Shown one piece after another: positions 43,800-63,117 of a DNA stretch of 64,000 bases. Origin of the DNA: Eledone cirrhosa (Eukaryota); the NCBI GenBank assembly GCA_964016885.1, contig OZ024746.1, positions 72,478,001-72,542,000 on the forward strand, given 5' to 3'. Position 1 is the stretch's first letter. Every line of letters begins with the position of its first letter. The notes under the pieces are model-generated. The model saw nothing but the letters and a program-made list of their open reading frames with translations. It did not search any database and was not told the DNA's origin. The position numbers and the translations under genes were made by a program.

Positions 43800-44290
43800 A
43801 TATAAGTATGTATACGTACATACATATATGCATACAGACGTACAGTAGTATGTATATATATATATATATATACATACATGCACGCATATATATATGTACG
43901 TATGGATTCACCGAACATTTATTACAATGCTCGGTGTGTTTGTAAACAAACATCCCGAATTAAGCCGTACAGTGTCTAGCAACCATCGTTGCTCATTTGT
44001 TCAACACTGACAAAGGAACGTTGTACTAGTTTCAAGCTTATTAGCTATCGTCAGCAACGTATACCTTCCTGCCAGATGGTTGAACGTCTGAAAGTATATA
44101 CTTTCCTTATGCATATTAACGGCTGAGCAGCCTAATTTGCATATCGAGTGAGTTAATCGGCCGGGGTACCGAAAACGATAAACGGAAAAAAATGAAACGA
44201 AATTTCATTTCTCACTCTTAGTACGGCTGTTACTTAAATATAAGTATGTATACGTACATACATATATGCATACAGACGTACAGTAGTATG
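43800..44290 (-). mobile_element. Family C retrozyme-like unit, 1.1-mer (period 438)
   Basis: ~50-bp terminal direct repeat (43803 and 44241). Hammerhead at 44018-44060. No ORF. Confidence 0.8.
44018..44060 (-). ncRNA. Minimal type I hammerhead ribozyme, intact core
   Basis: Minus strand: acgttg CTGACGA t-agct-aata-agct-t GAAA ctag TA caacgt. Confidence 0.85.
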
Positions 44291-44366
44291 TATATATATA
44301 TATATATATATATATATACTCTATTAACATCATAGCGTACGTATATAGTGCGAACTTTATTTTTTC

Positions 44367-44410
44367 TGTTTTGATAAGTCAATATCGTTGGCGAAACTTC
44401 GAAATAAACA
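44367..44410 (+). ncRNA. Type I hammerhead with U3-A8 core
   Basis: tgtt TTGATAA gtcaa-tatcg-ttggc GAAA cttcgaaa TA aaca. Base of stem III is mismatched. Confidence 0.6.
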
Positions 44411-45120
44411 TTCACCATTAATTAGAACTATTACATTGAGTCTATATACGTTATATGAATCCTTACTTCAGTGCATGCTTAGTACATTTATCATACAAAC
44501 CCATAAACCAATGTGTGTGTGTGTGTGTGTGTGTGTGTGTGTGTGTGTGTGTGTGTGTGTGTGTGTGTGTGTGTGTGTGTGTGTGTGTGTGTGTGTGTGT
44601 GTGTGTGTGTGTGTGTGTGTGTGTGTGTGTGTGTGTGTGTGTGTGTGTGTGTGTGTGTGTGTGTGTGTGTGTGTGCGCGTGCGTGTGCGTGTGTGTGTGC
44701 GTGTGTGTGTGTGTGTGTGTGCGTGTGTGTGTGTGTGTGTTCAGTATCACGATTTGTTGCAGTTTCTTCAGGCGTCTTATCAAAATTGTACTAAAGAGCA
44801 AGTATGTCATATTTTTAAGTAGCGGCTTCACCAAGTAACTTATGAAATTTGTAATAAAAACCATATATATATACTTTTAAATATTGCTTATATCACTTCA
44901 GTAAATGAGGATGTCGGGGAGGATAATGTATGGATAAAAGGAAAAGAGGAGGGGATTTGAGGTAGTTTAATATGCAATGAAACAAGACAGCTGAGAATAT
45001 AAAATGCGATTACAGAGGAAAATAAAATGCAATAATAAAATGAAATTAAATCCTATTAAATAGAATGCCATAAAATAGATTAAATGAAATATATATAAGA
45101 GTGTATAAATACATATATTA

Positions 45121-45300
45121 TTGGCAGTATCGGTAGAGGGTCGGGCACCATGCTTTGAAGCATAAAGTTACCTCCCTTTATGATCTGAGTTCAAATCCCG
45201 CCGAGGTTAACTTTGCCTTTCATCCTTACGGGGTCGATAAAATAAAGTACCAGTAATGCATTGGGATAATTGCTGGCCTGGTGCCAAAAGTAGAAACAAT
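45121..45300 (+). mobile_element. tRNA-derived SINE
   Basis: Same family as 2250. Confidence 0.85.
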
Positions 45301-61732: not shown

Positions 61733-61922
61733 AATTGTTTCTACTTTTAGCACAAGGCCAGCAATTATCCAGTGTATTACTGGTACTTTATTTTATCGAC
61801 CCCATAAGGATGAAAGGCAAAGTTAACCTCGGCGGGATTTGAACTCAGAATGGCAAGGGCCGTAATTCCATGCGTCAAAGCATGGCGTCCGACCCTCTAC
61901 CGATACTGCCAATCCACCGCCC
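61733..61922 (-). mobile_element. tRNA-derived SINE with 17-bp TSD, inside a local tandem duplication
   Basis: GATATTTATCACATAAT at 61719-61735 and 61923-61939. Confidence 0.9.
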
Positions 61923-62307
61923 GATATTTATCACATAATAACCCTAATGTTTACACACACACGCAGAGACACACAGAGAGAGAGAGAGAGAGAGAGACAC
62001 ACACACACACACACACACTCACACACACACACACACACACACACACACACACACAAACACACACACTGCACAGACATATATATATATATATATATATATA
62101 TATGTAGGTCATAACAGTTAATAACATAGTCTCCGGAGGTTGAAAAATCATTCCTCCTTTTGGATTACTGATTTACCAAATATACTGATTAACATTCAGC
62201 TTCTATAATCTTTACCAGGACATATATTGATAAACTCCAATATAAACTTTATATATATATATATATATATATATATATATATATATATATATATATATAT
62301 ATATATA

Positions 62308-62610
62308 TAGGAGTAAGTAAGACCCCGACGGCTGAGCTCAAGCCGTTTCGACGGCTAATTCTGTACTGAATGAAAAATCAGTTCTGGTATTTAAATAGCC
62401 GAACTTGTCAAGGGGCAATTCCATATATGGTCAAAGAGATAATCACCAGGATTGGTCATCCCACAAGGTAGTAGTAATTCTGCGATGGCAAGTTGGTGGG
62501 GGAGGTAGCCAAACCTCTTACTTACTCCTATTACCCACTCTACTACCCTAAGTATTGAGTACTTTGGTGCGTTATGGTCCACCTGGTTCCTTACCACTTT
62601 TCATTCGCTA
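62308..62610 (+). mobile_element. Family A copy with long inverted 5' segment
   Basis: Inverted part 62308-62515, forward part 62516-62610, 15-nt overlap (TCTTACTTACTCCTA). Confidence 0.8.
62322..62416 (-). ncRNA. Complete family A type I hammerhead, U3-A8 core
   Basis: Minus strand: gcccc TTGACAA gttcggcta..tagccgtc GAAA cggcttgagctcagccg TC ggggt. Confidence 0.75.
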
Positions 62611-62652
62611 TATATATATATATATATATATATATATATATATATATATATA

Positions 62653-63117
62653 TGGAAAAAATGAAACGAAATTTCATTTCTCACTCTTAGTACGGCTGTT
62701 ACTGAAATATAAGTATGTATACGTACATACATATATGTATACAGACGTACAGTAGTATGTATATATATATACATATATGCACACATATATATATGTACGT
62801 ATGGATTTACCGAGCATTTATTATAATGCTCGGTTTGTTTGTAAACAAACATCCCGTATTAAGCCGTACAGTGTTTAGTAACCATCGTCACCCTTTGTTC
62901 AACACTGACAAAGGAACGATGTACTAGTTTCAAGCTTATTAGCTATCGTCAGCACCGTATACCTTCCTGTCAGGTGATTGAACGTCTGAAAGTATATACT
63001 TTCCTTATGCATATTAACGGTTGAGCAGCCTAATTTGCATATCGAGTGAGTTAATCGGCCGGGCGCACCGAAAACGATAAGTGGAAAAAATAAAACGAAA
63101 TTTCATTTCTCACTCTT
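62653..63117 (-). mobile_element. Family C retrozyme-like unit, 1.1-mer (period 429), different permutation
   Basis: 36-bp terminal direct repeat (62653 and 63082). Same monomer as 43800-44290. Confidence 0.8.
62916..62958 (-). ncRNA. Minimal type I hammerhead ribozyme, intact core
   Basis: Minus strand: acggtg CTGACGA t-agct-aata-agct-t GAAA ctag TA catcgt. Confidence 0.85.

What the first reader, a model, noticed from the sequence alone, without database searches (positions are those of the whole stretch)
43800..63117. Candidate cephalopod retrozyme: one ~430-nt hammerhead monomer inserted as two different circular permutations
Seen: 43800-44290 and 62653-63117 are the same non-coding unit (periods 438 and 429). 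Each is slightly over one monomer, but the terminal redundancy lies at different places (TAAGTATGTATACG.. versus TGGAAAAAATGAAACG..). Both carry an intact minimal type I hammerhead on the minus strand, and both ends merge into microsatellites. Known: non-LTR retrozymes of other metazoans are hammerhead-containing, non-autonomous repeats that produce circular RNAs, and PLE terminal repeats carry similar minimal hammerheads. Inference: these copies were reverse-transcribed from a circular or multimeric RNA with variable entry points, probably by PLE proteins. I know of no description of this family, but could not search.
Basis: partly seen in the sequence, partly recalled or inferred. Interest (0 to 1): 0.9.

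Follow-up and report, generated by a model that had tools for sequence, protein, structure and literature searches.

The report
Octopod ribozyme repeat riding Penelope retrotransposons
The two repeats are copies of a non-coding 420-500-base unit with a predicted self-cutting RNA motif, present over 10,000 times in this genome and pasted into (TA)n tracts from two fixed start points about 59 bases apart, the signature of Penelope-type jumping genes, and its youngest insertions are chains of up to 16 near-identical units, as a copying enzyme running round a small RNA circle would likely leave.

Summary
In detail: two 92%-identical copies (periods 438 and 429), each with a type I hammerhead motif on the minus strand. 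The reading 'variable entry points' fails. In a position-ordered sample, 99 of 114 outer 3' ends fall at two fixed sites 59-61 nt apart, mostly against (TA)n, and head-to-head insertions carry one of each (22 of 24). Copy A ends at one site, copy B near the other. This is the published Penelope-like (PLE) 'tail' signature. Two protein-coding PLE families of this genome show the same two ends 58 nt apart but no sequence likeness to the unit; a third has a roughly 40-nt tail. The family has at least 10,602 hammerhead cores. A very young 422-nt haplotype forms dispersed head-to-head chains of 1.8-16.3 units per arm (132 of 160 units identical), and 5' ends do not pile up at the cleavage site, so the template was a circle (likely) or an uncut multimer. 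No RNA data; cleavage untested. Verdict: a new non-LTR retrozyme family, a known kind, with unusually direct genomic evidence for PLE mobilisation. The scan noted similar PLE-type ribozyme insertions before, on other DNA of this and other genomes.

The parts
43800..44318 (-). Copy A, about 1.15 units; RNA-sense 3' end at the 'short' start site (43800), 5' end merging into (TA)n at about 44297-44318
43785..43802 (.). (TA)n target tract at the 3' end of copy A; no target-site duplication discernible
44019..44059 (-). Type I hammerhead motif of copy A (helix I proximal, CUGACGA, helix II, GAAA, palindromic helix III); predicted cleavage between 44024 and 44023
43999..44085 (-). Hammerhead with extended helix I (predicted; pairs kept in 97% of cells across 10 diverged copies)
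44178..44237 (-). The 60-nt 'tail' segment between the short and long start sites, here internal to copy A; contains a predicted hairpin
62653..63117 (-). Copy B, about 1.08 units; 3' end 6-7 nt short of the canonical 'long' start site (a recurrent variant), 5' end truncated at 63117
62917..62957 (-). Type I hammerhead motif of copy B; predicted cleavage between 62922 and 62921; G-U at the variable helix I pair
62609..62652 (.). (TA)n target tract at the 3' end of copy B
36164..37911 (+). 5'-truncated copy of protein-coding Penelope-like family 'PLE-A' (RT C-terminal part, C-x4-C-x2-C linker, GIY-YIG, hammerhead-like motif at 37662, ends at its own short site into (TA)n); candidate supplier of the copying enzyme, not part of the repeat

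Best explanation
The two repeats belong to a non-coding hammerhead repeat family (a non-LTR retrozyme) that is pasted into (TA)n tracts from two fixed start points about 59 nt apart, likely by the RT-GIY-YIG protein of the co-resident PLE-A/PLE-B clade copying a likely circular, self-cleavage-derived monomer RNA. Steps: (1) read-through transcription of copies with two or more hammerheads (inferred); (2) self-cleavage at GUA, probably in the dimeric fold because helix III is a 2-bp palindrome, and ligation to a 420-500-nt circle (inferred from PMC7229834; untested here); (3) the PLE protein nicks both strands of a (TA)n tract and primes at two internal sites ending in TAT (sites shown; enzyme inferred from PMC11167929 and the matching 58-nt spacing); (4) each RT runs across the cleavage site for 0.6 to 16 laps and drops off at scattered positions (shown as DNA structure); (5) joining of the two cDNAs gives a head-to-head insertion with one short-ended and one long-ended arm, or a single arm survives, as in copies A and B (structures shown; order of events inferred); (6) some old insertions later grow by DNA-level duplication into arrays of 10 kb and more. 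My odds by part: PLE-type insertion from two fixed sites 0.95; independent non-coding unit 0.9; circular monomer as main template 0.6; PLE-A/B clade as the partner 0.6; self-cleavage active in vivo 0.65.
For: Copy number: 10,602 exact 31-nt hammerhead cores, 12,135 tail motifs, 27,786 post-cleavage motifs, reversed-pattern controls 0. Fixed ends: 99 of 114 outer 3' ends in two windows covering 8% of the unit (9.1 expected); 90 of 114 followed by (TA)n; 22 of 24 inverted insertions with both ends classed have one of each, p 1.8e-5 against a coin toss. Spacing 59-61 nt in 41 of 43 internal units. PLE-A ends 58 nt apart (a minority 43) and PLE-B 58 nt apart, also one of each in inverted pairs; PLE-C about 40-44 nt from 3 short and 4 long ends. 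No pile-up of 5' ends at the cleavage site: 1 of 71, 1 of 115, 0 of 32 within S434-S6 (1.8, 2.9, 0.8 expected). Young burst: one 422-nt haplotype at many dispersed loci; in 20 fetched loci 35 of 35 visible outer ends lie at the two sites, 15 of 15 complete inverted insertions have one of each, arms 1.8-16.3 units; 132 of 160 complete units (these 20 loci plus L274) are identical including microsatellite length, and outside L274 and L358 the 13 substitutions are singletons that recur in no other locus. Helix I is kept: its one highly variable pair pairs in 230 of 239 copies as U-G, G-U, U-A or A-U (shuffled mean 126, maximum 151).
Against: No RNA evidence for transcription, cleavage or a circle was obtained. 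A perfectly homogeneous uncut multimer transcript predicts the same young chains. Two of 21 young loci carry variants shared by runs of units (L358: one substitution in 4 consecutive units; L274: one in 5 of 6), which a single monomer circle alone cannot make. Older neighbours within one insertion sometimes differ at subfamily-diagnostic sites (e.g. 9 of 25 in L199; 13 of 18 in L029). The unit has no detectable sequence likeness to PLE-A or PLE-C ends, so the partner rests on spacing, target and youth only, and other PLE families were not exhaustively sought. The hammerhead lacks G10.1-C11.1 and the catalytic fold is not the minimum-energy fold of the core. In the one PLE studied in vitro, hammerhead cleavage was not needed for insertion (PMC11167929); 8 of 9 Xenopus retrozyme dimers did not cleave in vitro (bioRxiv 2026.07.22.740005). 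The young loci were picked for identity to one unit, which inflates their homogeneity. The covarying pair reflects only about three independent subfamily changes.
Confidence: 0.6

Rival explanations
1. Same PLE-driven insertion from two fixed sites, but the template is an uncut linear read-through transcript of a tandem array; the hammerhead is silent or incidental and no circle is involved.
For: Homogeneous young arrays and long old arrays exist as possible sources. Runs of shared variants in L358 and L274. PMC11167929 found uncleaved RNA to be the main substrate for a PLE in vitro. One young insertion (L352) begins at the cleavage site, as a linear RNA would.
Against: No substitution recurs between young loci or between arms at the same register in the 2 testable substitution cases (L353, L363), although about 1 unit in 10 is variant. 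Old long arrays are heterogeneous (mean 8-21 differences between neighbouring units over about 265 nt) and cannot have templated the young chains. Helix I is conserved by pairing-preserving changes, which suggests the ribozyme matters.
Confidence: 0.27
2. One reading: copies come from a circle entered at variable points, so each copy is a free circular permutation.
For: Copies A and B do begin at different points and exceed one unit; 5' ends are scattered.
Against: 99 of 114 and 35 of 35 outer 3' ends lie at two sites.
Confidence: 0.02
3. The copies are 5'-truncated stumps (pLTR plus tail) of a protein-coding PLE that I did not find.
For: Same end signature as coding PLEs; 24 of 57 Xenopus retrozyme families matched known elements, nearly all PLEs, at their pLTRs, so the unit may well descend from one.
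Against: In 247 hammerhead copies the upstream DNA is the same unit (224), an inverted piece of it, or unrelated flanks that differ from each other; none is a PLE ORF. Chains of up to 16 units have no ORF. Three coding families examined have different terminal sequences.
Confidence: 0.05
4. A satellite DNA spread and amplified at the DNA level, with the hammerhead a passenger.
For: Long heterogeneous arrays with higher-order repeats; ABAB alternation in L158 and L213 with no sister dimer among 38 scored candidates.
Against: Most insertions are short, dispersed, 5'-truncated or head-to-head with fixed 3' ends at (TA)n; where an end of a long array was seen (C4, C1, C11) it was the long start site next to (TA)n.
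Confidence: 0.04

Closest known systems
Animal non-LTR retrozymes (Cervera and de la Pena 2020, PMC7229834, passages seen; Li, Clavereau and Pollet 2026, bioRxiv 10.64898/2026.07.22.740005, parts 1-3 of 5 read)
   Same: Non-coding unit in the 150-450 bp range (older subfamilies; one subfamily reaches about 500), low GC, type I hammerhead in each unit, monomers to long multimers, thousands of copies, co-resident PLEs proposed as mobilisers.
   Different: No cephalopod family appears in the passages and searches I saw (mussel is the mollusc studied). Those papers infer PLE mobilisation from co-occurrence, shared motif and pLTR homology; here the insertion ends themselves carry the two-site tail signature, without pLTR homology to the candidate partner. 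Circular RNA was shown there and is untested here.
Insertion structure of EN+ Penelope-like elements (Craig et al. 2021, bioRxiv 10.1101/2021.04.23.441226, passages; Frangieh et al. 2024, PMC11167929, parts 1-2 of 4 read)
   Same: Partial tandems, inverted 5'-truncated partner arm, tail on one end only, two internal RT start sites, (TA)n targeting, no clear target-site duplication.
   Different: Tail is 59-61 nt rather than 30-40; no ORF; arms are many-unit chains; hammerhead has canonical-like helix sizes rather than the minimal PLE type.
Non-autonomous Chlamys elements such as MRC1 (Craig et al. 2021, passage)
   Same: [quoted passage not shown]
   Different: Those resemble their autonomous partners at the 3' end and most Chlamys lack hammerheads; this unit has a hammerhead and no detected likeness to the PLE-A or PLE-C ends.

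Membership tests
non-LTR retrozyme | Type I hammerhead motif in each unit | tested here: met
   core intact in 10,602 places; U-U replaces G10.1-C11.1
non-LTR retrozyme | Short (about 150-450 bp), low-GC, non-coding unit without LTR organisation | tested here: met
   units of 420-438 nt, one subfamily 456-502; no ORF of 120 aa or more inside either copy's unique part; PBS and PPT were not searched for
non-LTR retrozyme | Occurs as tandem dimers to multimers as well as monomers | tested here: met
non-LTR retrozyme | Self-cleavage of the transcript | not testable with these tools
   needs in vitro transcription; only structure and covariation examined
non-LTR retrozyme | Expressed as linear and circular monomer RNA | not testable with these tools
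   no run on record as RNA was listed; the runs laid were contigs of unrecorded kind
PLE-mobilised insertion | Two fixed 3' ends separated by a tail, tail on one arm only | tested here: met
   99 of 114 and 35 of 35 ends; 22 of 24 and 15 of 15 inverted insertions
PLE-mobilised insertion | Variable 5' truncation and head-to-head inverted arm | tested here: met
   34 of 80 insertions inverted, all with 3' ends outward; 5' ends scattered
PLE-mobilised insertion | Microsatellite (TA)n target | tested here: met
   90 of 114 outer ends; no background rate computed in this (TA)n-rich genome
Autonomous PLE (or pLTR stump of one) | Joined to an RT plus GIY-YIG ORF | tested here: not met
   0 of 247 hammerhead copies; PLE ORF fragments near some copies belong to separate insertions with their own ends
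Minimal PLE hammerhead (min-HHR, PMC4209133) | Helix III absent or vestigial, long helix II (7-8 bp), short helix I (4-5 bp) | tested here: not met
   helix II 4 bp, helix III 2 bp with palindrome, helix I extended
Derivative of PLE-A, PLE-B or PLE-C | Sequence likeness to the partner's pLTR or tail | tested here: not met
   BLASTN word 7 against 30 PLE-A and 30 PLE-C loci found only separate retrozyme copies and simple-repeat matches; PLE-B compared by eye only

The most novel reading that the evidence does not exclude
The young 422-nt burst is a genomic footprint of rolling-circle, target-primed reverse transcription: a PLE dimer primes twice on one ribozyme-made RNA circle, at sites set by spacing or structure rather than by shared sequence, and laps it up to 16 times per arm. 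If so, it is direct evidence for how animal retrozyme circles are mobilised and offers a general explanation for the partial tandems and pseudo-LTRs of Penelope-like elements and for why they keep a hammerhead.
Probability: 0.5. Interest if true: 0.72.

Novelty: new member of a known kind. Interest (0 to 1): 0.5.

Why it matters
Retrozyme papers propose, but do not show, that PLE enzymes copy circular ribozyme RNAs into tandem DNA; PLE papers leave open how tandems arise and what the hammerhead is for. This family supplies a very young, uniform template, exact predicted start sites, candidate partner ORFs with the same start-site spacing and a negative control family (PLE-C, shorter tail), so an existing in vitro PLE assay can test circle against linear multimer directly. 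It also adds a repeat with over 10,000 ribozyme motifs to an octopod-like genome. The kind of element itself is known, which caps the score.

Tried and rejected
Expression: no RNA holder listed; laying four contig sets of unrecorded kind showed presence only and nothing on ends or circles; not used as evidence either way. Rfam: no hammerhead hit. Pfam found no family in the PLE-A fragment or full ORF and solved structures gave only two weak RT matches, so PLE status rests on motifs, architecture and homologues. An early impression that 5' ends were capped at the cleavage site came from query-biased loci and vanished in position-ordered samples. A dimer-circle reading of the ABAB array L158 found no sister locus above 96% among 38 scored of 3804 candidates; local duplication or assembly duplication is as likely. 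The first unit comparison included truncated units and was replaced. The structure string was misregistered and its numbers are void; one search is the correct one. Lower divergence of the hammerhead core (0.9% against 2.3%) is not used, because copies were selected on that core. The whole-unit folding z-score of -10.4 is inflated by self-complementary TA-rich tracts. A coding parent was sought among PLE-A, PLE-B and PLE-C only. Repbase and Dfam could not be searched; the repeat library and supplements of PMC13282606 and of the 2026 preprint were not seen and may already list this family under another name.

Full report
Observation. The two stretches are the same unit: 91.9% identity over 421 columns, periods 438 and 429. 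Each has a type I hammerhead motif on the minus strand with predicted cleavage after GUA at 44024|44023 and 62922|62921; the same descriptor finds 0-1 loci per 64 kb in 20 of 20 shuffles. Rfam does not report it. Below, S-numbers count along the hammerhead-sense unit of copy A from the first base after the cleavage site.

Abundance. Exact patterns in the window's own 3.0-Gb genome give 10,602 hammerhead cores, 12,135 tail motifs and 27,786 matches to the motif just after the cleavage site, with 0 matches to each reversed control. These are lower bounds; subfamilies down to about 80% identity with units up to about 500 nt exist. The closest named relatives of a co-resident retrotransposon protein are Octopus vulgaris proteins at 69% and 74% identity, which is the only support for 'cephalopod'.

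The ends are fixed, not variable. I took the first 100 hammerhead matches along contig C1 (position order, not score), merged into 78 loci and 80 insertions. Of 114 outer 3' ends, 46 lie at S217-232 and 53 at S267-285, 15 elsewhere; 9.1 would be expected in those windows by chance. The windows were chosen after seeing earlier, score-selected loci, so one search is largely an independent check. 90 of 114 ends run into (TA)n. 46 insertions are single-armed and 34 head-to-head with 3' ends outward; of the 24 with both ends classed, 22 have one short and one long end (p 1.8e-5); the other 10 have one unclassed end. The two sites are 59-61 nt apart in 41 of 43 internal units. Copy A ends at the short site and copy B 6-7 nt before the long site, a recurrent variant. 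So the 'two permutations' are the two end classes.

This is the PLE tail signature. Craig et al. describe partial tandems, an inverted truncated arm, a 30-40-bp tail usually on one end, and (TA)n bias (passages). Frangieh et al. showed in vitro that a PLE protein cuts and extends both strands and starts reverse transcription at two internal sites whose interval is the tail; hammerhead cleavage was not required (parts 1-2 of 4). The window itself holds a truncated coding PLE at 36164-37911. Its family (PLE-A; copies 96-99% identical, open frames up to about 1200 aa) ends at two sites 58 nt apart, with a minority at 43, and its four inverted pairs have one short and one longer end. A sister family, PLE-B (62-65% protein identity), also has 58 nt. 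A distant family, PLE-C (26% identity, DKG motif), has about 40-44 nt, from only 3 short and 4 long ends read by eye. The spacing therefore points to the A/B clade, but the unit shows no sequence likeness to PLE-A or PLE-C ends, and none of 247 hammerhead copies lies behind a PLE ORF: 224 have the unit upstream and 23 have an inverted piece of it or unrelated flank. The partner is inferred, not shown.

Template. Copying starts at S224 or S284 and runs towards S1; every copy with a whole hammerhead has crossed the cleavage site. 5' ends do not gather there: 1 of 71 in a tail-selected sample, 1 of 115 and 0 of 32 in two others, against 1.8, 2.9 and 0.8 expected. Cleaved linear monomers were thus not the main template; a circle or an uncut multimer was. 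Units within one insertion usually share subfamily alleles (7% and 9% of diagnostic sites differ in 33 tandem and 44 inverted pairs, 38% in unrelated pairs), with clear exceptions. A search with one unit of L274 exposed a very young haplotype of 422 nt at many dispersed loci (365 matches from 39 scored of 360 candidates). I fetched 20 of these loci, favouring multi-unit ones. All 35 visible outer ends lie at the two sites; 16 loci are head-to-head, and the 15 with both ends in view have one of each; arms are 1.8-16.3 units. With L274 added, 132 of 160 complete units are identical, microsatellite length included; 14 variant units are scattered over 12 loci and their 13 substitutions never recur, while L274 and L358 hold the other 14 and show variants shared by runs of units. 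This is what laps round one monomer circle would give, plus occasional later duplication; a perfectly homogeneous uncut multimer would give it too, and the loci were selected for identity. Old arrays of 10 kb and more are heterogeneous with higher-order repeats, and where an end was seen it was the long site beside (TA)n, so they look like PLE-type insertions later expanded as DNA.

The ribozyme. Helix sizes match the 'canonical' animal type I motif of PMC4209133 (passages) better than the minimal type; the 2-bp palindromic helix III suggests dimeric action (inference from that paper and PMC7229834). The one highly variable helix I pair stays paired in 230 of 239 copies through four pair types (shuffled mean 126), and the extended structure is paired in 96.9% of cells over 10 hand-picked diverged copies (2 of 500 shuffles as high); relatedness inflates both figures. 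Against activity: U-U replaces G10.1-C11.1, and the minimum-energy fold mispairs the core. Cleavage is untested.

What is known. Non-LTR retrozymes were defined in coral, mussel and axolotl, with circular RNAs shown and PLEs proposed as mobilisers (PMC7229834, passages). A 2026 preprint argues from co-occurrence and pLTR homology that they are non-autonomous PLE derivatives, in 35 species with no mollusc among the classes named, and reports no end analysis in the parts read (parts 1-3 of 5). Six literature searches listed no paper on a cephalopod retrozyme; the main text of an Octopus vulgaris repeat annotation has no occurrence of 'hammerhead' or 'ribozyme' (its library not seen). PMC10886601 and PMC6765202 (passages) added nothing on this family. 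Repbase and Dfam were not searchable. The scan's own notes have no look-alike of this sequence but report the same kind of insertion for a 310-base family and outward-pointing inversions in this genome, and similar elements in other genomes; I had reached my reading before seeing them.

Verdict. Real feature; a new family of a known kind. The added value is the end map, the spacing match to one PLE clade, and the young many-unit chains, which make the circle question directly testable. Interest 0.5.

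Noticed in passing
window 36164-37911 (+): 5'-truncated, very young coding Penelope-like element (PLE-A) with its own hammerhead-like motif at 37662; full-length relatives with open frames of 1150-1200 aa exist in the genome.
   Followed up: yes
window 31978-32100 (+), 41896-42060 (-), 17372-17728 (inverted pair): A second, unrelated hammerhead family (long helix II) that also ends in (TA)n at a short site or continues into a tail; found in about 29 fetched loci; whether it has a coding parent was not determined.
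   Followed up: partly
window 43670-43730 (+): A degenerate hammerhead-like motif (CUGAGGA ... GAAA with palindromic helix III) just left of copy A, sharing its (TA)n tract; no other copy among fetched loci; missed by the descriptor scan for weak helix I.
   Followed up: partly
window 62309-62612 and pieces at 1684-1870, 14423-14509, 26552-26746, 42056-42170, 42869-42969, 58117-58310, 61108-61241: Another abundant (TA)n-bounded repeat with many inverted fragments, matching 57 fetched sequences; sits directly beside copy B.
   Followed up: no
window 2237-2655 and 53871-54269: 203-bp unit in two-copy tandems, also seen singly near 41720-41900; not characterised.
   Followed up: no
   Followed up: no
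G000 C4:375.754-375.779 Mb, C12:20.419-20.436 Mb, C28:109.96-110.04 Mb, C21, C11, C1:97.03 Mb: Long heterogeneous arrays of the unit with higher-order periodicity; possible satellite birth from a retrozyme insertion.
   Followed up: partly
L351, L353, L360, L274 inversion junctions: In several young head-to-head insertions the two arms' 5' ends meet within a few bases of the same unit position (290/291, 291/291, 20/17, 70/70), perhaps fold-back joining at local hairpins.
   Followed up: no
L352 (G000:C7:28.587 Mb): A single-armed 8.5-unit young insertion whose 5' end coincides with the predicted cleavage site; one case, within chance.
   Followed up: no
L392 (G000:C1:323.80 Mb): Third coding PLE family (PLE-C, 923-aa open frame, DKG motif) with a shorter tail of about 40-44 nt.
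   Followed up: partly
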